From the UHGV virus genome UHGV-1982450: a stretch of DNA of 21,444 nucleotides; one strand, 5' to 3'. The DNA is from a virus. The notes under the pieces are model-generated. The model saw only the letters and a list, made by a program, of their open reading frames with translations. It was not told the origin of the DNA and did not search any database. Position 1 is the first letter of the stretch. Every line of letters begins with the position of its first letter. Positions 8,444-20,889 of the stretch are shown in pieces. Made by a program: the position numbers and the translations under genes.

Positions 8444-8965
8444 TTATTCTTCGAACAATTTTTCGATAGATTTTGTTGGATAGAACAAAGAACGATCGTT
8501 GTTACCAACCAGCTGGATAAAGCCCAAACTTTTATAAAACGCCCTGGCTTTATCGTTCAACGCCTCAACGAAAAGCCCATGAATGCCTACCGCAAGAGAT
8601 GCATTGTACACAACACGCATTGCGTGAGTTACAAGCATTGAGCCAAGCCCCTGACCTTGAAGAGATTTGTCCAAAGCCAGTCTGCCTAAAGTGATACTTG
8701 GGACATGCCGATAAGGCACTTTCTTTTGCTGACTCTTTGAAGGTAAGGTTTCTTTCTCAAAGCAGCTGCCTGACAAAGTGTAATAACCTAATACCTTTGG
8801 TATTTCTTCTTTAGTGCAAAGCACATAAGCGCGAAGAATTTTTCCTTCATGCTGTCTTTTTAAGTGGTTGGTCAAAAATGCGTTTAGCGACTCTTCGCCG
8901 CAATCAAAACCGTTTAGATCATAATCTTTCTCTCCAGAGAAAATCTCGATCGTCGTATTGCTCAC
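8444..8965 (-). CDS. GNAT-family acetyltransferase toxin of the TacT/AtaT/KacT type (aminoacyl-tRNA acetylating toxin family)
   Basis: Family-typical motifs FDCG, LGRLALDKSLQGQGLG and YKSLGF. Lies immediately downstream of, and co-oriented with, a DUF1778-type antitoxin gene. Confidence 0.9.
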   Translation of the reverse strand: MSNTTIEIFSGEKDYDLNGFDCGEESLNAFLTNHLKRQHEGKILRAYVLCTKEEIPKVLGYYTLSGSCFEKETLPSKSQQKKVPYRHVPSITLGRLALDKSLQGQGLGSMLVTHAMRVVYNASLAVGIHGLFVEALNDKARAFYKSLGFIQLVGNNDRSLFYPTKSIEKLFEE

Positions 8966-8972
8966 GAGTAAA

Positions 8973-9242
8973 TTACTCCATGCTTTTCAGACGATTGGCA
9001 GCTCGTTTCAGCTTGTCGTTCGGTGCCGGAGGATTGCTTATAGCATCCATAACCAGATTCCAGGACTCTTCACTTAGAACCAGTCTACGGTGTTGCTCTA
9101 TCACCTTCACGGCACGTTCGGATGCACTGCTAACCATGAACTGGGTAATGCTCTGGTTAGACATTGCGGCAGCTTCCTCGATGATGCTTTTATCGTCATC
9201 GGTTAATCTCAAATCGATGCGCTGCTTTTTCAGTGCGGACAT
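8973..9242 (-). CDS. DUF1778-family antitoxin (TacA-like RHH antitoxin)
   Basis: 89-aa protein whose N-terminal RHH region (RIDLRLTDDDKSIIEEAAAMSNQSITQFMV) and C-terminal toxin-binding helix match the DUF1778 pattern. Separated by 7 nt from the GNAT toxin gene. Confidence 0.85.
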   Translation of the reverse strand: MSALKKQRIDLRLTDDDKSIIEEAAAMSNQSITQFMVSSASERAVKVIEQHRRLVLSEESWNLVMDAISNPPAPNDKLKRAANRLKSME

Positions 9243-9510
9243 GTGTACCCCCTGATGGCCGGTGATGTAGGAAGGCCATCATTGCTCTCTATTTAAACTG
9301 AGTTTTCGACTCAAAGGTTATTTAACTGGGCTATAGCCCATTGCGTATGTGTCATCAAATTGTGTACGGCAATTTACCGTACTCGTAATATAGAGGTGAT
9401 TGTCACTTTTTTCAACAGACAAATGAAAACAGTTACTAGCAATAGGCAATAACAACCTACTAAATAACCTTTACACCGCAGCCGTAGGCATTTAGGCTAT
9501 ATCGCATATA

Positions 9511-9526
9511 AGAAAACAAGTTGTTT
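9511..9526. promoter_or_regulatory. Dyad motif AGAAAACAAGTTGTTT, 36 bp upstream of the parA-like start
   Basis: Same AAACAA-N-TTGTTT palindrome as at 3668-3682 and 12440-12455. Confidence 0.4.
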
Positions 9527-9561
9527 CATACGACAATAATTCACGCAAAGGAAACTCACCA

Positions 9562-10227
9562 ATGACCAAGATCATTGTGGTTGGCGGCACAAAAGGCGGC
9601 CCAGGCAAATCTACCGTTGCCCAGCAAATTGCGGTATGTCTCAAAGTTAAAAAGAAAAAGAAGGTTCACGTCACCGATATCGATATCCAGCGCACCACGA
9701 CCAGCTGGTGTGAAGACCGTCGCCAGAACGAAGATCTTGAACTGATCCCGTTCGCTTATGTGCAGGACGACATCGTCAAACATCTTAAATCGCTTCAGGG
9801 GCGAACTGATTATGTAGTGGTAGATGCTGGTGGCTTTGACTCCGAAATTCAGCGTCTGGCGATGCTTATGGCTGATGTAATCATCATCCCGCTGCGCCCT
9901 AAACGTCGTGATTTGAAATCTCTGCGTGATATCGACCCGATTATCGACAACGTTCGCAATGTGAACGAGAAAGTTAAGATCCGCGCGGTAATAAACCAGT
10001 GTCCGTCATTGCCTTCCCAGGTATCACGTATTCTGGCCGCGAAGGAAATTGTCGAAACTTTCGGCATCGAGGCTGCGCCGGTTAACCTGTACAACCGTAA
10101 CGTTTATGACGATGCGGAAGAGGCAGGTCGTTCTATCTTTGAAATGACTGGCGCTGAACGCGATAAGAAGGCAGAAGCCGAGTTCGAAGAGTTTGTAGAT
10201 TACATCTTGAGTCTGGAGGAAGAATAA
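9562..10227 (+). CDS. parA: ParA/ParF-type partition ATPase (small deviant Walker-A ATPase)
   Basis: Deviant Walker A GGTKGGPGKST at the N-terminus, size of about 221 aa typical of type Ib ParA/ParF, and a coupled downstream small RHH gene. Confidence 0.9.
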   Translation: MTKIIVVGGTKGGPGKSTVAQQIAVCLKVKKKKKVHVTDIDIQRTTTSWCEDRRQNEDLELIPFAYVQDDIVKHLKSLQGRTDYVVVDAGGFDSEIQRLAMLMADVIIIPLRPKRRDLKSLRDIDPIIDNVRNVNEKVKIRAVINQCPSLPSQVSRILAAKEIVETFGIEAAPVNLYNRNVYDDAEEAGRSIFEMTGAERDKKAEAEFEEFVDYILSLEEE

Positions 10228-10586
10228 TGTCCATGAGAATGGGAGACCTTGCAAAGCGCAATGAGCCTAAAGAACCGGCCAAAAGCAGCACTCCACTGCG
10301 CCAGCCAGTCAGACCGCAGGGGCGTCCGACTCGTGGCAAAGAGAAAATTAAAAGTCGCACAATGTCACTGGAAGACGAATACTTCGAACTGCTGGAGATG
10401 ATGAAGTTCATCCCTCGTTTCGAGAAGTTCACCCGTTCTGACGTGATTCGCGCTGCTATTTTCCATCTGGCAGAGAAGTCACCGCAGGAAATCGAGGACA
10501 TCGTGAAACTTAACGAGGCGATCACAGCTGCCGATGTCACGATGCGTACCGATGAAATCAAACGAGAGTTGATGAAGAAAGGTTAA
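10227..10586 (+). CDS. ParG-like centromere-binding protein (basic disordered N-tail plus C-terminal RHH)
   Basis: Start overlaps the parA stop (TAATG). Basic N-terminal tail and C-terminal RHH pattern SLEDEYFELLEMM ... RSDVIRAAIFHL. Confidence 0.6.
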   Translation: MSMRMGDLAKRNEPKEPAKSSTPLRQPVRPQGRPTRGKEKIKSRTMSLEDEYFELLEMMKFIPRFEKFTRSDVIRAAIFHLAEKSPQEIEDIVKLNEAITAADVTMRTDEIKRELMKKG

Positions 10587-10590
10587 AAAT

Positions 10591-10623
10591 TATGCATTGG
10601 CGCAATGTACGCGCCAATGCATA
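10591..10623. terminator. Bidirectional terminator candidate: 13-bp perfect stem (TATGCATTGGCGC / GCGCCAATGCATA) with a 7-nt loop, between convergent genes
   Basis: Read directly. An A/T tract (AAAAATT) flanks it on the left, which gives a U-tract for the minus-strand transcript. Confidence 0.5.
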
Positions 10624-10638
10624 AGTACAGTGTCAGCT

Positions 10639-11406
10639 TTATGCCGCGCTAACACTATGTTCATTCCTAACCACCCCAACCTTCACAAAAGGGCTGCCGT
10701 AGCTTGGTGGCTTCTTGATTAATTTGCCTACATACAGTTTTCTAATATGCTCATCGGCTATTCTGCCAACAAATTCATAACGTTTTGTGTCGGGGCCAAG
10801 AGCTATATCCCTTGTAAAGTACTGCTGAGAACCGGCTTTGACCCAGCATTCAATCTGATAAACTTCCATTATCAGGCCCCCATATGTAGCGTAGGCATAT
10901 TTGAGATTCTCGTCTCTTGGAACCTTTGCCCATACGCCACGCGTAGCTTCATATAATGCCAGAGCGGACATTCCTGACTTGTAGGTGCTGTTTAGCAGGA
11001 AGGCAAGACCGGCGTGCTCAGGAGCAATTTCAGTTTCCTCTTGCAGCACTAAGTGATGGTAGGCGTCCAGTGATATTCTGCCCATCATGGAACCACTTCC
11101 TCGTACCTTATTCGTAAGCTCTCCGACCCCCATAAGGTCGATGCATGTCGCCTCAACAAGTTTGGCTGTGGTTTCATCCATACCATGACGAAGAATATCT
11201 ATGCCTAATTTTTTATTAGCCAAAAGTTCTTTGATCCGCATGGATTTGGGAGAGTCATCGGGATACTTGATGTGATCGAGACAACGAGTCGATTTGCCTT
11301 TTCCTATGTAAAACGGTCTTTTCATCTTGTCTTCTGTATCATAGAGACAGTAAACATAGTATTTAGCCTTATCCAATGATCTCGCGTATACCGATAAATC
11401 GTCCAT
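10639..11406 (-). CDS. GIY-YIG nuclease domain protein with an uncharacterised C-terminal domain of about 150 aa
   Basis: N-terminal GIY-YIG motif YYVYCLYD ... PFYIGKGKSTRCLDH. The C-terminal half has no motif I recognise. Confidence 0.7.
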   Translation of the reverse strand: MDDLSVYARSLDKAKYYVYCLYDTEDKMKRPFYIGKGKSTRCLDHIKYPDDSPKSMRIKELLANKKLGIDILRHGMDETTAKLVEATCIDLMGVGELTNKVRGSGSMMGRISLDAYHHLVLQEETEIAPEHAGLAFLLNSTYKSGMSALALYEATRGVWAKVPRDENLKYAYATYGGLIMEVYQIECWVKAGSQQYFTRDIALGPDTKRYEFVGRIADEHIRKLYVGKLIKKPPSYGSPFVKVGVVRNEHSVSAA

Positions 11407-11518
11407 TATTGCATCTCTTAGCTACTGACTAATGCGTTCTATTTTACACATAAGTTTTTAATCAATTTTACAGGCTCAAAGTGTAGAGCTTCTGGGTGTC
11501 TAAGACGACAAGTTATGC

Positions 11519-11583
11519 CTGTTTCTGTATATAAATAATAAGTAACTTATTAAATATATACGGAAGCAGGTCTTTTAAAAGAC
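11519..11583. repeat. Degenerate copy of the 3549-3611 inverted repeat (shared core TATATAAATA-TAAGT-ACTTATTAAATATATACGGAAGCAGG) immediately followed by a 14-bp perfect palindrome GTCTTTTAAAAGAC (11570-11583)
   Basis: Read directly. Intergenic, between the divergent GIY-YIG gene and the ORF starting at 11689. Confidence 0.7.
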
Positions 11584-11688
11584 ACCCACCAGAACAACTC
11601 CCTTCCGTTTCCACTTCCCAAAAATATCTCCAGTCGCTATGATTCGCTCACTTAGATAAGTAAGTACATACCTATTAAAGGGAATCAT

Positions 11689-12414
11689 GTGAGCCAGATC
11701 TTCTTCAACACTATCGACAATGACCAGTACGATTTCATGACAGAGTGGAACACCGCAGTCATGGATAAGTGGGTAGCGGAGAACATTGGCCTGTCACGTT
11801 GCAAGGACGAGGCGGAACTGTTCGAAACCAAATGGTTTGACTATCGCGATATGCACCCGCTCATGGCCACATGCCTTTTCACTGAGGCATACAAGCGCCA
11901 GTACTCATACATCATGCTGTCGCATGGTCGTGAACACTATGAGACGGCTCCATTCACAACCGGTCTGAAGCGTGTGCCATATCAGGAGTTGTCGACTGCC
12001 AATAAAACGTCTCTATGGAAAGCACGCCAGTTTGCTGACCGCTATTGCTGCTCATACGACTACTTTATCTCCACCGTTCTTTCCGCAGCTGCACGACGGC
12101 TGTGGGACAAATTACCGCGCCCCCAGCATCTCTGGCAGCCCGAGTTGATCGATATATTCGAAGAGAAGTTAGCCAAACGCGCTGTAACCCGTCTGGATGA
12201 CTCTCTGGTGAGTTTTAAGCATCTTGGAGACATGCAGCGTGACCCGATTCAGGAACGCTATTTTGAGTGGATTCTGGAGCGTCTGCGTGGCATTACCCGA
12301 GATAAACGCATCCGTATCATCTTCTCCGCTGTCTGGTTGATGGAAATCGTGCCTGAGCGTGTGATTTACGCGCACTTCCCGGAAGAACTGGAAGAAGCAC
12401 GGCGATTCTGTTGA
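11689..12414 (+). CDS. Hypothetical protein (241 aa, GTG start)
   Basis: Long ORF with Shine-Dalgarno AAAGGG 7 nt upstream of the GTG. No recognisable motifs. Confidence 0.55.
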   Translation: MSQIFFNTIDNDQYDFMTEWNTAVMDKWVAENIGLSRCKDEAELFETKWFDYRDMHPLMATCLFTEAYKRQYSYIMLSHGREHYETAPFTTGLKRVPYQELSTANKTSLWKARQFADRYCCSYDYFISTVLSAAARRLWDKLPRPQHLWQPELIDIFEEKLAKRAVTRLDDSLVSFKHLGDMQRDPIQERYFEWILERLRGITRDKRIRIIFSAVWLMEIVPERVIYAHFPEELEEARRFC

Positions 12415-12439
12415 TCCCCTATCTGGCTTTTTTAGTATT

Positions 12440-12455
12440 AGAAAACAAATTGTTT
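12440..12455. promoter_or_regulatory. Dyad motif AGAAAACAAATTGTTT, 20 bp upstream of the DnaB-like helicase start
   Basis: Same palindrome family as at 3642-3682 and 9511-9526. Confidence 0.4.
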
Positions 12456-12474
12456 AAGCACCAAAGGAAAGCAC

Positions 12475-13815
12475 ATGACCGAACTTTGCCACACAGGACG
12501 AGGGTTGTCTGAAGAGTTCGACGACGACTTCCAGAATAGACTCGCTGCCTACTTCTGTCGCGACCATGAGTTTCTGACTCGCGCAGGCGATCTGGTTGCC
12601 CCAAACCAGTTCTCTAATGCGGCTAACTCCATTCTGGTTAACATGGTGTCGGGCTACTACAGAATGTATAAGAGCGCACCATCATCATCAGCCATCCTCG
12701 ACATGCTCAAACGCGCCAAACGCGATAAGACGATCCGCGAAGAGCTGTTCCCTGACGTTGTTGAGGCGTTTAAGCGCATTCTCGCTGAGAAGCTGTCAGA
12801 TACGGCGTACATGGTCGACCAGGTCGCGACATTTGCTAAAAGCGTAGCGTTCGACGATGCGCTAATTAAAGCGGCTGAGATGAAAGAGAAGGGCGATTTC
12901 CAGGGCGCGATGGCAATCATGGCTAAGGTCCAGCAAATTGGCTCTAACGAAGCGACCGGCATTTACGATTACTTCGCAGAATCAGCGGAGCGTTACAAGG
13001 CCCGTGAGTACGAAGCGTCCGACGATTACGTGCCAAACAGCATCACTACCGGCCTCCCGCTGCTCGACAAACTGCTTTACCAGAAAGGCTGGGCAAAGCG
13101 TGAAATGGTGCTGTTTATGGGCTTCGCTAAGTCTGGTAAATCGACGGCGATGGGGGAGTTTTCCATCAACGCCACGCTTGCCGGTTACAACGTCCTGTAT
13201 CTGTCGCTGGAAGTTCACACCTCCATTCTGTCAGATCGCTTTGACGCCCGTCTGTCTGAGACCGAAATGTCCAGGCTGGTGGAACGTCGCGATGACGTCC
13301 ATCGCAAACTGGCGGAGCTGGGTGCGACGAAAGGCGTGGGAAGTTTGTGGATTGTTGAACGACCGTCCGGAAGCATGTCGCCCGCAGATCTGGATCGTAT
13401 GTTGGGCAGCATGAAAGCCAACGGCATGGTCCCCGATATGGTTGTGGTCGACTACGCTGACCTGATGCGTGCCAGCTACGACCTCCGCGACGACCGCGCT
13501 AACATTCGCAGCATCTACACTGACCTGCGTGCGCTGTACGACAAACACAACGTTGCCGGCATCACGGCATCGCAGACTAACAGAGAAGGTGGCGCTTCTG
13601 AGGTGGCTACAATGATGCACGCAGCGGACAACATCGAGAAGGTGCGTATCGCTGACCTCGTTATCACTATCAACAAAACGGAAGAAGAAGAAGCGAAAGG
13701 CGAAGCGCGTCTTTACTTCGCTGGTTCACGTAACCAGAAAGGCGGCGTAAGCATCCGCGTTAAGCAGAACCTCGAACAAATGCGATTCATCGAACGCATT
13801 ATGGACGTCCTCTAA
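12475..13815 (+). CDS. DnaB-like replicative helicase (RecA-fold C-terminal domain)
   Basis: Walker A GFAKSGKST followed by the DnaB-family pattern LYLSLEV ... VVVDYADLM ... ITASQTNREG. Shine-Dalgarno AAGGA before the ATG. Confidence 0.85.
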   Translation: MTELCHTGRGLSEEFDDDFQNRLAAYFCRDHEFLTRAGDLVAPNQFSNAANSILVNMVSGYYRMYKSAPSSSAILDMLKRAKRDKTIREELFPDVVEAFKRILAEKLSDTAYMVDQVATFAKSVAFDDALIKAAEMKEKGDFQGAMAIMAKVQQIGSNEATGIYDYFAESAERYKAREYEASDDYVPNSITTGLPLLDKLLYQKGWAKREMVLFMGFAKSGKSTAMGEFSINATLAGYNVLYLSLEVHTSILSDRFDARLSETEMSRLVERRDDVHRKLAELGATKGVGSLWIVERPSGSMSPADLDRMLGSMKANGMVPDMVVVDYADLMRASYDLRDDRANIRSIYTDLRALYDKHNVAGITASQTNREGGASEVATMMHAADNIEKVRIADLVITINKTEEEEAKGEARLYFAGSRNQKGGVSIRVKQNLEQMRFIERIMDVL

Positions 13816-19200: not shown

Positions 19201-20889
19201 TTTGTCCGTACCCCCATGGACTTCACTCGCGAGGAACTATCATTCCACGTCATTGACGATAAAGGCCGTAAAGGTGATGCAGTCGTCGAGCTTGTTTCTG
19301 AAATGGAGGGTAAATGGAATTCAGATGGGGAAGACGGCAATAAGGCGGGGATCATATTCACTTCTACCGTCAACGGAGCTAAGGGGTGTTATAGCTTAGC
19401 GGGCCGAATATCAACACTCTTGAAGATGGATGTTAGATATTTTTCGGGGTCGGCTCCGAAAATGGGTGGATTGCAGGGAGAGGCTTTCGATAGATATAAG
19501 CGCCAAGTTCAAGACGATTTTAAAGAAAATAAATACCGCCTACTTACTGCCACTAAGGCATTCGGAATGGGCGTGAATAAGGGAAATATTGCCTATACGG
19601 TTCACTTCGGAATACCTGGGTCGATGGAGGCCTTGTATCAGGAAGCTGGCAGGGCAGGGCGAGATAAAAAACTATTCAAGGAAGTACCCGCAGATTGCTA
19701 TGTGCTTCTCACAAAAGAGCCCAATTCAGCTATTCTCGACAAGATTTGGGACGCTAGCACGAACGTCAAAGATCTGAAGGAGTACGTGAAGTCATTGAGT
19801 CGCGATAGCGACCTGAACACAAATCTATTCCTGATGACAAACGGCTTGGGCACAATCAATGATGAGTTCAAGTTGATGGCAAATGTATACGAATTTTTTA
19901 AGTACAATCAGGAACACAACACGGTGACCATTACTGCCAGGCAGTTTGGTACGGAAAAGTTTAAATTGGAAAAGGCTATCTACCGCCTTTCTCAATTAGG
20001 TATTGTCTCTGACTGGGTAATCGAAGACTTTTTTAATGGAACGCTCTCTGTCGAGTTCCAGTGCCTATCGGAAGAAGGCCTGGAAAAGAAAATTGAGCAT
20101 ACCGTCAGAAAGTATGATCCTGAGTTTAAGCTCGCTGATGTGTTCAGTAGTGATAACCAGTACTACAAAATTCTCTGCGACAAGCTGAGAAAAGGGTCTA
20201 TCGATAAATCGCAATTTATCTTTCTTGTTCTTTTACTTTGGTCCTATGACCATTTTGTCTACAACCGCCGCCAGTCACAGAAGAACGTTTATGAACACTG
20301 TAGTTTATTTGCTGAAGGCAGGATGGATGGTAAAGAATTTAAGGAGAAGTTAGAGGGTTATTTCAGACACGACAAGTCGAGCCAACTTTTGCTCAATATG
20401 GCTGAGAATTCTGTGTCGGTGAAGTTATGGCCATCAGTTTTTTTTGAAACTGATGAAGAAGAGGGCTCGGAACATTTAGTAAGCAGCGAGAAGATGACGA
20501 TCCTACGAGGTCAGATTTCTCGATTCCTAGAGTCATACAAAGATAATGCATTCTTGAACTACTTGAGTGGTGTGCTGCGACTAGCTTCCGATGAGTTTGA
20601 TGATGCAGATGGAGAGCGAAGAATGGCATCGTCATTTGATCGGTTGATCAGTGATAATAGGGATGAAGCACTAGAGCTGGTCCGAAAAACTATGCAGTTA
20701 AAACCAATATTTTCTGAAAATGCGCGAAGTCGCTTTGCTCGTTTGGTCCATGAGAAATTTGAAGATTTGGATTTTCTTGGGGAAGTAAATGAAGAGCTAG
20801 GAGATCCGTTCTCCTATCACACTTTGTTAGCTCCACTGGCAATTAGACTTGAAAAACTTACCAGCCTATACAAGGGGATTAATTGGTGA
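16213..20889 (+). CDS. 1558-aa multidomain protein: N-terminal HAD-like phosphatase, ComF-like PRTase, Vsr/DUF559-like endonuclease-fold module, RecQ-family SF2 helicase core, and an uncharacterised C-terminal region of about 390 aa
   Basis: HAD motifs DLDDTL, FSNA, HKP, GDSNLDRD (aa 1-140). PRTase PRPP loop FLIIDDVLTSGATT (nt 17119-17160). Vsr-like pattern DFYIPQVGLIIEIDGQQH ... TVRF (about nt 17710-17997). RecQ motifs LLPTGSGKS, VVCPIKSLMYDQ, VIDEAHCLSEWGHDFR, LTATA, ATKAFGMGVNK, YQEAGRAGRD (about nt 18610-19692). Confidence 0.9.
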   Translation: MIKVIVLDLDDTLIDTSSLEPLRLAGRWRDIPRYFNGCVINQDVVGLVTTARSVGIKVAIFSNAPSNYVQGLLKHFSITVDYVVAYHDVTQHKPSPEGVTRILEYFGVSADESIYLGDSNLDRDAASNAGVEFFSVDWGSASEIDSSHKGISGLSELIGKNSTRSSARTGRSELIQSGNKLHLGFYLDGIKQEVWSFKDNKNTSVRRWVNKTVELASSFPAIDIVVRALGHAELRAEDGDKALDTLGKSLAVALGASYQPKILEKDHVLDKSTNCTAAQRLHQVRGAYKADFDSIEANSNPTFLIIDDVLTSGATTDEITRCLSQAFPNSSIYIFTLVKTLYRLELCTDSQEQQHNNQLFSDLYNPIIDSLADESELSRHVRSKSSSRLVSKKFSANYARTNHNFIFHNLLQYSISSEAASGQLFAAIQVLKNMLQRGKPTIASRKLRKAFGIELDQNVLNTPAQALVSDKPVFWNRLIRGHKQSGNYPAKRFFDELIPKYFGKYIFVKQLMLPEVQIYDMTQVYVEQFQNRQVDFYIPQVGLIIEIDGQQHQNSQHLDEMRDAFTESLGLKTVRFTVQELASENQSFISKINSIISHIQIVDGLERNGVLTPPNGISLLNYQEAYENGVDVTDSRLRLTSALRFQILLLELLERGQIRLGELKKLFIVNRDGTDFAEAALDDLNDLLSNIFRLIGIEEKRIEVALIESDELPSERSGENIFIDFSLLERYDDSFQVNQDVIYSRTDYFDFYRNFEDSDAVSIETSQLIDYDFFELSCSNPITYKLDLSPGSEQRESLRYFLSNLFLPYLEDVDFREGQVGIIGSALSKNGTIGLLPTGSGKSICYQLSAVLQPAVSFVVCPIKSLMYDQKADLDSIGFTRSNFITSDLKAGEKAKVQRDFGRGKYFFVFISPERFQTHAFRKEMLAIGLDLSFAYAVIDEAHCLSEWGHDFRTSYLNLANTIERFAPSASYIGLTATASVNVLKDIQTEFDIPDDFVRTPMDFTREELSFHVIDDKGRKGDAVVELVSEMEGKWNSDGEDGNKAGIIFTSTVNGAKGCYSLAGRISTLLKMDVRYFSGSAPKMGGLQGEAFDRYKRQVQDDFKENKYRLLTATKAFGMGVNKGNIAYTVHFGIPGSMEALYQEAGRAGRDKKLFKEVPADCYVLLTKEPNSAILDKIWDASTNVKDLKEYVKSLSRDSDLNTNLFLMTNGLGTINDEFKLMANVYEFFKYNQEHNTVTITARQFGTEKFKLEKAIYRLSQLGIVSDWVIEDFFNGTLSVEFQCLSEEGLEKKIEHTVRKYDPEFKLADVFSSDNQYYKILCDKLRKGSIDKSQFIFLVLLLWSYDHFVYNRRQSQKNVYEHCSLFAEGRMDGKEFKEKLEGYFRHDKSSQLLLNMAENSVSVKLWPSVFFETDEEEGSEHLVSSEKMTILRGQISRFLESYKDNAFLNYLSGVLRLASDEFDDADGERRMASSFDRLISDNRDEALELVRKTMQLKPIFSENARSRFARLVHEKFEDLDFLGEVNEELGDPFSYHTLLAPLAIRLEKLTSLYKGINW

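What the first reader, a model, noticed from the sequence alone, without database searches (positions are those of the whole stretch)
10639..11406. Stand-alone GIY-YIG nuclease with an unknown C-terminal domain between the partition and replication genes
The N-terminal GIY-YIG motif is clear, and the C-terminal 150 aa has no motif I recognise. The gene is oppositely oriented to both neighbours, AT-rich, and bounded by a strong bidirectional terminator (10591-10623) and a repeat-rich intergenic region (11407-11688). Candidate roles are homing endonuclease, modification-dependent restriction-like nuclease or other defence nuclease.
Basis: partly seen in the sequence, partly recalled or inferred. 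Interest (0 to 1): 0.5.

Follow-up and report, generated by a model that had tools for sequence, protein, structure and literature searches.

The report
Phage-plasmid-borne PD-T4-3/CMoRE-like restriction nuclease
The gene is a divergent member of a recently solved family of single-protein restriction enzymes (PD-T4-3, also called CMoRE) that cut phage DNA carrying modified cytosines, and it sits as swappable cargo in a variable slot of an SSU5-like phage-plasmid, so it is a sensible but largely already-explained defence gene.

Summary
The 255-aa ORF at 10639-11406 (- strand) is real and strongly conserved. Its N-terminal half is a GIY-YIG nuclease with all catalytic residues present.

The "unknown" C-terminal half is homologous to the modification-sensing domain of PD-T4-3/CMoRE. 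That family is a single-gene type IV restriction endonuclease, and its E. coli members degrade 5hmC/5ghmC DNA (crystal structures 9U75/9U7U, Nat Commun 2026). The supporting results are:
- PADLOC PD-T4-3 HMM: E = 1.3e-23.
- PDB sequence hit: E = 2e-15 across both domains.
- hhalign: 99.4% probability.

The window protein is a distant branch, about 26-32% identical. It has a shorter alpha2-alpha3 loop that lacks the four-acidic autoinhibitory run. No member of this branch has been tested.

The window is an E. coli SSU5-like phage-plasmid. The gene, its terminator hairpin and about 110 bp of upstream sequence form a ~930-bp cassette in a hotspot between the parB-like gene and the rep-like gene. 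In relatives this hotspot is empty or holds unrelated cargo.

A homing-endonuclease role is unlikely. A published survey already lists PD-T4-3 in SSU5-group phage-plasmids. The gene is a new member of a known kind, and interest is low to moderate.

The parts
10587..11517 (-). Accessory cassette of about 930 bp: terminator hairpin, GIY-YIG gene and about 110 bp of upstream sequence. It lies between the stop codon of the parB-like gene and the backbone palindrome.
   Evidence: Homology to SSU5 and Cyrano stops at 10584 and resumes at 11508-11518. Alignment with an empty-site relative (NZ_CP027369) shows 31 bp in place of the cassette. The cassette is 98-99% identical to phage PhiR41_1, while the flanking backbone is 80-85% identical.
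10639..11406 (-). [quoted passage not shown]
11095..11373 (-). [quoted passage not shown]
10672..11085 (-). C-terminal domain (aa about 108-245), homologous to the CMoRE modification-sensing domain. Conserved R156, W159, W188, F212 and G214.
10590..10624 (-). Intrinsic terminator hairpin of the GIY-YIG gene: 14-15 bp perfect stem followed by TTTTT on the - strand. It lies at the convergent junction with the parB-like gene.
   Evidence: It is part of the cassette and is absent from the empty site.
11407..11517 (-). Cassette-specific upstream region. It is inferred to hold the gene's promoter. It contains a -10-like TAAAAT at 11441-11446 and direct repeats TCTATTTTACA/TCAATTTTACA at 11438-11472.
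   Evidence: It travels with the gene at 98% identity. No consensus sigma-70 promoter was found. Repeats.
11518..11570 (.). 26-nt-arm AT-rich palindrome of the backbone, forming the right boundary of the hotspot. It is not part of the cassette.
   Evidence: z = -8. Conserved in SSU5, Cyrano, PhiR41_1 and the empty-site plasmid.
9562..10586 (+). Left flank of the hotspot: ParA ATPase (9562-10227) and a 119-aa parB-like partner (10227-10586).
   Evidence: Pfam MipZ/CbiA/ParA and phrog_164; phrog_5111.
11689..13815 (+). Right flank of the hotspot: a 241-aa rep-like gene of unknown function (phrog_2500) and a DnaB-like replicative helicase (12475-13815).

Best explanation
[quoted passage not shown] It is carried as accessory cargo by an SSU5-like phage-plasmid of E. 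coli.

**Proposed mechanism, inferred from the characterised homologues**
1. The C-terminal domain binds DNA bearing a bulky base modification. The most likely targets are 5-hydroxymethyl- or glucosyl-hydroxymethyl-cytosine of T-even-type phages.
2. The protein works as an oligomer.
3. The N-terminal GIY-YIG domain (Y17, Y19, Y33, R41, E85, N99) then makes Mg2+-dependent double-strand breaks. The incoming phage genome is destroyed while unmodified host and phage-plasmid DNA is spared.
4. This is direct immunity, not abortive infection. It benefits the lysogen and therefore the phage-plasmid.

**Shown here**
- Homology over both domains.
- An intact catalytic set.
- The fold match to the solved CMoRE structures.
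- The cassette structure, the hotspot, and recent exchange between diverged backbones.

**Inferred**
- Modification dependence.
- The identity of the modification.
- The oligomeric state.
- How the nuclease is kept off unmodified DNA, given that the acidic lid of E. coli CMoRE is shortened here.
For: **Homology to PD-T4-3/CMoRE**
- The PADLOC PD-T4-3 model matches aa 11-231 to profile positions 11-238 of 256, E = 1.3e-23.
- phmmer against the PDB finds only the CMoRE chains 9u7u and 9u75, E = 2e-15, over aa 12-230.
- hhalign of the 40-sequence family profile against an O157-type CMoRE gives 99.4% probability over 212 columns, spanning both domains.

**Catalytic and sensor residues**
- The GIYxY-YIG tyrosines and the catalytic R, E and N are invariant.
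- The C-terminal residues R156, W159, W188, F212 and G214 are conserved across the superfamily, including CMoRE.

**Experimental record for the family**
- Activity on 5hmC/5ghmC DNA, protection against T2/T4/T6, and direct rather than abortive defence (PMC12923530).
- Modification-dependent activity of a 48%-identical Capnocytophaga homologue (PMC12366544).
- Activity in a native E. coli host (bioRxiv 10.1101/2024.12.20.629700).

**Genomic context**
- The gene stands alone with its own terminator. In Providencia, Shewanella and other chromosomes it is also a solitary gene.
- In other SSU5-like elements the same slot holds PADLOC candidate defence genes: DUF2971/PDC-S31 and KAP NTPase/PDC-S49.
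- DefenseFinder already reports PD-T4-3 in SSU5-group phage-plasmids of E. coli and Shigella.
Against: - Identity to the characterised enzymes is only 26-32%.
- The PD-T4-3 HMM score is low: 82 bits, against 464 for genuine CMoRE and 255 for a jumbo-phage homologue.
- No member of this branch has been tested.
- The alpha2-alpha3 loop is about 8 residues shorter. It carries only D50 and D51 in place of the DDDE/DDDD run. Mutating that run made CMoRE toxic and less specific, so specificity control must differ or be weaker here.
- The 5hmC contact in CMoRE is a main-chain carbonyl (Y127). Its equivalent here (about V120) cannot be judged from sequence.
- No consensus promoter was found.
Confidence: 0.75

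Rival explanations
1. It is a free-standing GIY-YIG homing endonuclease of the Seg/MobE type. On this view it cuts cassette-less SSU5-like genomes near the parB-like/rep-like junction and spreads by recombinational repair.
For: - It is intergenic and intermittently present. About 135 of roughly 740 related plasmid records carry it at 99% identity or more.
- The cassette is 98-99% identical between backbones that are only 80-85% identical. The high-identity tract extends about 220 bp into the parB-like gene and about 55 bp into the backbone palindrome, which looks like co-conversion.
- Relatives in jumbo phages are annotated as homing nucleases.
Against: - The C-terminal half is homologous to a modified-base sensor. 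It is not a NUMOD, zinc-finger or HTH homing module.
- The same slot is occupied by several unrelated genes or is empty. That marks it as a general recombination hotspot rather than a homing site specific to this endonuclease.
- Homologues sit as solitary genes at unrelated chromosomal sites.
- Characterised family members show modification-dependent cleavage without strict sequence dependence.
- Exchange tracts that end in flanking homology are equally expected from ordinary homologous recombination.
Confidence: 0.07
2. It is a defence nuclease of the same fold, but with a different trigger from E. coli CMoRE. The trigger could be another hypermodified base, such as arabinosyl-hmC, Mom-type N6-carbamoylmethyl-adenine, deazaguanines or hmU derivatives. 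Alternatively it could be a broader activity restrained by low expression.
For: - It is a divergent branch: 82 bits on the PD-T4-3 HMM and 26-32% identity.
- The acidic lid is shortened.
- PD-T4-3Capno also degrades Mu DNA carrying modified adenine.
- CMoRE shows graded activity on arabinosylated hmC.
- The ligand binds at an edge rather than in a pocket, which allows plasticity.
Against: - All tested family members act on T-even hmC/ghmC DNA.
- Core sensor-domain residues are conserved.
- E. coli, the host here, is heavily exposed to T-even phages.
Confidence: 0.13
3. It is a nuclease used by the phage-plasmid for its own life cycle or for competition. Examples would be host or rival-plasmid DNA degradation, or exclusion of related phage-plasmids, rather than anti-lytic-phage defence.
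For: - It is located beside the partition and replication genes.
- It is carried by a temperate element.
- Lytic jumbo phages carry PD-T4-3-like genes, which shows the family is also used by phages.
Against: - The gene is dispensable. Most SSU5-like elements lack it, and one relative has an empty site.
- Its orientation and terminator isolate it from the par and rep operons.
Confidence: 0.05

Closest known systems
PD-T4-3 / CMoRE (E. coli ECOR68, APEC O1, O157:H7; K. pneumoniae NJST258_2; PDB 9U7U, 9U7Z, 9U75, 9U8D; Liu et al. Nat Commun 2026, PMC12923530; first found by the E. coli pangenome selection cited there)
   Same: - A single gene of about 250 aa.
- An N-terminal GIY-YIG domain with the extra tyrosine (GIYxY-YIG) and the catalytic R, E and N.
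- A homologous C-terminal sensor domain.
- The best sequence, profile and fold match over both domains.
   Different: - 26-32% identity, and a PD-T4-3 HMM score of 82 bits against 464.
- The alpha2-alpha3 loop is 12 residues rather than 20, with no four-acidic run.
- It is carried by a phage-plasmid hotspot. The 98%-identical O157-type copy I fetched lies on a 64-kb plasmid record beside phage tail-fibre genes.
- It is untested.
PD-T4-3Capno (Capnocytophaga homologue from metagenomic selections, PMC12366544)
   Same: It belongs to the same family. It is a modification-dependent nuclease whose catalytic-site mutants lose defence.
   Different: It is 48% identical to PD-T4-3, so it lies closer to the type member than the window protein does. 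It was shown to cut Mu DNA as well.
Modified-base reader plus nuclease fusions among type IV enzymes (VcaM4I EVE-HNH, PvuRts1I/AbaSI SRA-like, McrB N-terminal domains)
   Different: - The nuclease fold differs: GIY-YIG rather than HNH or PD-(D/E)XK.
- Fold similarity is marginal and there is no sequence similarity.
- The CMoRE authors report no structural homologue for the sensor domain.
Free-standing GIY-YIG homing endonucleases (I-TevI, T4 Seg proteins)
   Different: - There is no homing-type DNA-binding module.
- The slot is shared with unrelated cargo.
- The family's activity depends on DNA modification, not on a specific sequence.

Membership tests
PD-T4-3 / CMoRE type IV restriction endonucleases | Single-component system: one protein of about 250 aa with an N-terminal GIY-YIG domain and a C-terminal sensor domain. 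| tested here: met
   255-aa solitary ORF with its own terminator. Both domains align to CMoRE. Homologues are solitary in chromosomes too.
PD-T4-3 / CMoRE type IV restriction endonucleases | 'GIYxY-YIG' motif (three tyrosines) plus the catalytic Arg and Glu. | tested here: met
   Y17, Y19, Y33, R41 and E85 (plus N99) align with CMoRE Y17, Y19, Y31, R39 and E93 (plus N105). They are invariant.
PD-T4-3 / CMoRE type IV restriction endonucleases | Inserted, negatively charged autoinhibitory loop between alpha2 and alpha3, with four consecutive acidic residues. The authors say 'most' members have it. | tested here: not met
   The loop is IKYPDDSPKSMR (12 aa, 2 acidic) against MRGEVAATDDDELLSNKLKQ (20 aa, run of 4). 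The short loop is the commonest state, seen in 71 of 113 sampled representatives, usually with 2-4 scattered acidic residues.
PD-T4-3 / CMoRE type IV restriction endonucleases | C-terminal modification-sensing domain homologous to that of 9U75/9U7U. | tested here: met
   [not shown]
PD-T4-3 / CMoRE type IV restriction endonucleases | Match to the family profile used by defence-system finders. | tested here: met
   PADLOC PDLC04031: E = 1.3e-23, 82 bits, near-full-length. This is much weaker than genuine members at 464 and 255 bits. DefenseFinder itself was not run, but a survey reports PD-T4-3 calls in SSU5-group phage-plasmids.
PD-T4-3 / CMoRE type IV restriction endonucleases | Homotetramer (dimer of dimers) required for function. 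| not tested
   Only a monomer was modelled. The interface positions V92 and L96 correspond to V84 and C88 here, which is not informative on its own.
PD-T4-3 / CMoRE type IV restriction endonucleases | Cleavage of 5hmC/5ghmC DNA but not C or 5mC DNA, and protection against T-even phages. | not testable with these tools
   This needs plaque assays and nuclease assays. It is known only for homologues.
Free-standing GIY-YIG homing endonucleases | C-terminal sequence-tolerant DNA-binding module (NUMOD, zinc finger or HTH) attached to the GIY-YIG domain. | tested here: not met
   No such Pfam domain at E <= 0.1. The C-terminal fold matches the CMoRE sensor and PUA-like readers instead.
Free-standing GIY-YIG homing endonucleases | Presence/absence polymorphism at one cognate site, with co-conversion of the flanks. 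| tested here: inconclusive
   The polymorphism and a 1.2-kb high-identity tract exist. However, the site also holds unrelated cargo, as expected for a general hotspot.
Type II GIY-YIG restriction-modification systems (Eco29kI, Hpy188I) | An adjacent cognate DNA methyltransferase. | tested here: not met
   The neighbours are parA, the parB-like gene, the rep-like gene and the DnaB-like gene. No methyltransferase lies in the cassette.
PUA-like (EVE/YTH/ASCH/SRA) modified-base reader domains | PUA-like beta-barrel fold of the reader domain. | tested here: inconclusive
   [not shown]

The most novel reading that the evidence does not exclude
The short-loop branch to which this protein belongs is the commonest loop state among the relatives sampled here, a set biased towards this protein (71 of 113 representatives). 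It may be a functionally distinct type IV enzyme in two ways: it may have a different modification range, or it may avoid self-damage by some means other than the acidic lid described for E. coli CMoRE.

Separately, the parB-like/rep-like slot of SSU5-like phage-plasmids may be a dedicated defence hotspot. If so, its uncharacterised occupants (a 352-aa protein and sets of 2-3 small proteins) would be new antiphage genes. A minor addition is that the CMoRE sensor domain may be a diverged PUA-like reader rather than a new fold.
Probability: 0.25. Interest if true: 0.45.

Novelty: new member of a known kind. Interest (0 to 1): 0.25.

Why it matters
SSU5-like phage-plasmids are common in E. coli, Shigella, Salmonella and Klebsiella, including clinically important lineages. 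A type IV restriction gene on such an element can change which lytic phages a strain resists, and it can move between strains with the element.

The practical value here has three parts:
- It gives a functional name to a widespread 'hypothetical protein'. At least 135 plasmid records carry it at 99% identity or more.
- It defines a cargo slot whose other occupants are candidates for defence genes.
- It flags that the autoinhibitory lid described for CMoRE is not general in the family.

None of this overturns current understanding.

Tried and rejected
**Searches that found nothing**
- NCBIfam: no family at E <= 1.
- Pfam for the C-terminal half: nothing at E <= 0.1.
- Sigma-70 promoter scans, both the tool and my own relaxed scan: no convincing promoter for the gene.
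- Literature search for a described SSU5 defence hotspot at this position: nothing specific. Only antibiotic-resistance hotspots elsewhere and general surveys turned up.

**Ideas rejected**
- Bidirectional terminator: rejected in the strict sense, because no T-run follows the hairpin on the + strand.
- Transposition as the route of insertion: no target duplication or terminal repeats at the cassette ends. Recombination within flanking homology fits better.
- Type II restriction-modification system: no methyltransferase nearby.
- Homing endonuclease: rejected for the reasons given under the rival explanations.

**Not attempted**

Full report
**1. The observation**

The ORF exists exactly as described: 10639-11406, - strand, ATG start, 255 aa. 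It is convergent with a 119-aa parB-like gene (10227-10586) that follows a ParA ATPase (9562-10227). It is divergent from a 241-aa rep-like gene (11689-12414), which is followed by a DnaB-like helicase.

The gene has somewhat lower GC than its neighbours: 44.7% GC with GC3 0.445, against GC3 0.53-0.64 next door.

A perfect 14-15 bp hairpin lies at 10590-10624, with a free energy of -23 to -24.5 kcal/mol and z-scores of -4.3 and -5.8. Only the - strand has the following T-run. It is therefore the GIY-YIG gene's own intrinsic terminator, and it does not score as a bidirectional one.

The 282-bp upstream intergenic region is 35% GC. Its dominant feature is a 26-nt-arm palindrome at 11518-11570 (z = -8). 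There are also a pair of 11-nt direct repeats at 11438-11472 and a weaker palindrome in front of the rep-like gene.

**2. What the protein is**

*Family assignment.*
- Pfam sees only a LEM-3-like GIY-YIG domain at aa 32-104. NCBIfam sees nothing. PHROGs places the protein in phrog_5356, of unknown function.
- The PADLOC library matches it over nearly its whole length to PD-T4-3, E = 1.3e-23.
- A sequence search of the PDB returns only two distinct sequences, both PD-T4-3 proteins (9u7u/9u7z and 9u75/9u8d). The match is E = 2e-15 and aligns aa 12-230 to residues 17-243.
- A profile of 40 homologues (A1) aligns to an O157-type CMoRE sequence with 99.4% hhalign probability over 212 columns, covering both domains. 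I recovered that CMoRE sequence from plasmid NZ_CP146678, where it is about 98% identical to 9u75.

*Structure.*
- An AlphaFold2 model has mean pLDDT 86.4 and pTM 0.81. Its top four Foldseek PDB hits are the four PD-T4-3 entries, labelled '5hmC specific restriction endonuclease', at E = 1.5e-11 to 2.9e-10 and 26-28% identity. The UvrC GIY-YIG domains follow.

**3. What is known about that family**

PD-T4-3 was characterised and renamed CMoRE (Liu et al., Nat Commun 2026, PMC12923530). The main findings are:
- It is a single-component type IV modification-dependent endonuclease.
- It protects against T2, T4 and T6 by direct defence rather than abortive infection.
- It binds and degrades 5hmC and 5ghmC DNA, but not C or 5mC DNA.
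- It cuts with CN11/N9G geometry, and the crystal structures and oligomerisation mutants show a functional tetramer.
- It carries a 'GIYxY-YIG' motif: Y17, Y19 and Y31, plus a catalytic Arg and Glu.
- It has a 15-residue acidic loop between alpha2 and alpha3. The authors propose this loop autoinhibits the active site. Neutralising it makes the enzyme toxic and able to cut ordinary DNA.
- Its C-terminal domain binds 5hm-dCTP.

Two independent studies support this picture. A Capnocytophaga homologue is a modification-dependent nuclease that also degrades Mom-modified Mu DNA (PMC12366544). In a clinical E. coli isolate, PD-T4-3 is one of only two defence systems found active in the native host (bioRxiv 10.1101/2024.12.20.629700).

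**4. How the window protein compares**

*Features that are present.*
- The three tyrosines (Y17, Y19, Y33), R41, E85 and N99 are all there. They are invariant in close homologues and in about 110 of 113 superfamily representatives.
- Sensor-domain residues R156, W159, W188, F212 and G214 are likewise conserved across the superfamily, including CMoRE.

*Differences.*
- Identity to CMoRE is only 26-32%.
- The PD-T4-3 HMM score is 82 bits. Genuine CMoRE scores 464 bits and a jumbo-phage homologue scores 255 bits. Members of the window's own branch score 90-98 bits.
- The alpha2-alpha3 loop is 12 residues (IKYPDDSPKSMR, two acidic) instead of 20 (MRGEVAATDDDELLSNKLKQ, a run of four acidic).

*How typical the short loop is.* In my sample of superfamily representatives, 71 of 113 have the short 12-residue loop, usually with 2-4 scattered acidic residues. 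Only the CMoRE sequence has a run of four. That sample is biased towards relatives of the window protein.

*Size of the superfamily.* It has 1,782 representatives of 50%-identity clusters at E <= 1e-3, 632 at E <= 1e-10 and 58 at E <= 1e-30. Most are two-domain proteins of about 245-260 aa.

The window protein is therefore one lineage of a large, star-like family whose tested members all lie in other lineages.

**5. Genomic setting**

*The element.* The window is an E. coli SSU5-like phage-plasmid.
- It is 99.97% identical and collinear with plasmid NZ_CP086388, apart from an IS1 in that record.
- About 740 plasmid records and 11 phage records share the par/rep backbone. These include SSU5, Cyrano, PhiR41_1 and the Klebsiella phage-plasmids.

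*Distribution of the gene.*
- Only 124 plasmid records cover at least 80% of 9500-12500.
- By tblastn, 179 plasmid records carry a homologue. In 135 of them it is at least 99% identical, and almost all of these are Escherichia.

*The cassette.*
- Homology to SSU5 and Cyrano stops at 10584 and resumes at 11508-11518.
- An empty-site relative, NZ_CP027369, has 31 bp there.
- The cassette is therefore about 10587-11517: the hairpin, the gene, and about 110 bp of upstream sequence.

*Other occupants of the slot.* In other elements the same slot holds:
- a DUF2971 protein matching PADLOC candidate PDC-S31 (SSU5, Cyrano);
- a KAP-family NTPase matching PDC-S49;
- a 352-aa unknown protein on the - strand;
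- two or three small unknown proteins.

*Evidence of recent exchange.* Between the window and phage PhiR41_1, the gene and its upstream region are 98-99% identical. parA, the rep-like gene and dnaB are 80-85% identical. The high-identity tract runs from about 10370 to about 11570 and ends inside backbone sequence on both sides. There are no target duplications or terminal repeats. This is the signature of recent cassette exchange by homologous recombination at a hotspot.

*Chromosomal homologues.* In Providencia, Shewanella and an uncultured gammaproteobacterium, homologues are solitary genes among unrelated genes, sometimes next to integrase or IS remnants.

**6. Mechanism proposed**

The protein is a modification-dependent restriction endonuclease. 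It protects the phage-plasmid's host from phages with hypermodified DNA, most probably hmC or glucosyl-hmC T-even phages. The C-terminal sensor recognises the modified bases and the GIY-YIG domain cuts.

What is shown is the two-domain homology, the intact catalytic set, the fold match, and the cassette and hotspot structure. What is inferred is the substrate, the oligomeric state, and how self-DNA is spared without the long acidic lid. Possible answers to the last point are the weaker acidic loop, low expression (no consensus promoter was found), or intrinsic affinity differences.

**7. Rivals**

- *Free-standing homing endonuclease.* This would also give an intergenic, intermittently present cassette that is better conserved than its flanks. 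However, the C-terminal domain is a modified-base sensor homologue and not a homing DNA-binding module. The slot also carries unrelated cargo, and the family occurs at unrelated chromosomal sites.
- *A different modification specificity.* This is a live possibility, given the divergence and the plasticity documented for the family.
- *A role in the element's own replication or competition.* This is unlikely because the gene is dispensable in most relatives.

**8. Novelty**

Four things are already known: the family, its mechanism, its structure, and the presence of PD-T4-3 calls in SSU5-group phage-plasmids of E. coli and Shigella (bioRxiv 10.1101/2025.09.12.675607). Public records still label this protein 'hypothetical' or 'LEM-3-like GIY-YIG domain-containing'.

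Three things are added here:
- The protein is placed in a divergent, untested, short-loop branch.
- The cassette and the parB-like/rep-like hotspot are delimited, and the alternative cargo is listed.
- A weak but consistent structural link is found between the sensor domain and PUA-like readers, which the CMoRE authors did not find.

The verdict is a new member of a known kind, of low to moderate interest.

Noticed in passing
window 10604-10610 versus L003 (PhiR41_1) 2596-2628: The 7-nt loop of the terminator hairpin is AATGTAC in the window and its reverse complement, GTACATT, in PhiR41_1. The stems are identical. The palindrome appears to have flipped between otherwise 98-99% identical cassettes.
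   Followed up: no
slot equivalent to window 10587-11517 in L001, L002, L005, L006, L007, L008, L009: The slot between the parB-like and rep-like genes of SSU5-like phage-plasmids is a cargo hotspot. It is empty in NZ_CP027369. Elsewhere it holds a DUF2971 protein (PADLOC PDC-S31), a KAP NTPase (PDC-S49), a 352-aa unknown protein on the - strand, or two to three small unknown proteins. The unknowns are candidate defence genes.
   Followed up: partly
window 11518-11570: A conserved AT-rich palindrome with 26-nt arms (-27.6 kcal/mol, z = -8) followed by TCTTTT. In the empty-site relative it lies 31 bp after the parB-like stop codon. It could be the par-operon terminator, a centromere or an operator. 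This was not resolved.
   Followed up: partly
window about 8444-9242, - strand: A TacA-like (DUF1778) antitoxin at 8973-9242 (Pfam E = 3.5e-26), with a GNAT-family acetyltransferase toxin gene just downstream. This TacAT/KacAT-type toxin-antitoxin pair lies directly beside parA.
   Followed up: no
L011 1468-2232 (Serratia phage Moabite gp009) and the other jumbo phages listed: Lytic jumbo phages of Serratia and Pectobacterium encode two-domain proteins that match the PD-T4-3 HMM strongly (255 bits for Moabite gp009). Some are annotated as GIY-YIG or homing endonucleases. This suggests phages themselves use this type IV enzyme family, perhaps against competing phages with modified DNA.
   Followed up: partly
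window 19456-19467: The otherwise 99.97% identical plasmid NZ_CP086388 carries an IS1 insertion at this point, inside or next to the large 'HAD-IA family hydrolase' gene. It also has an IS26 at the window's left end. The window lacks the IS1.
   Followed up: no
window 11686-11691: The rep-like gene starts with GTG in the window (ATCATGTGAGCC). PhiR41_1 and the empty-site plasmid have an ATG start at the same codon (CACATGAGCC).
   Followed up: no
[not shown]
   Followed up: partly
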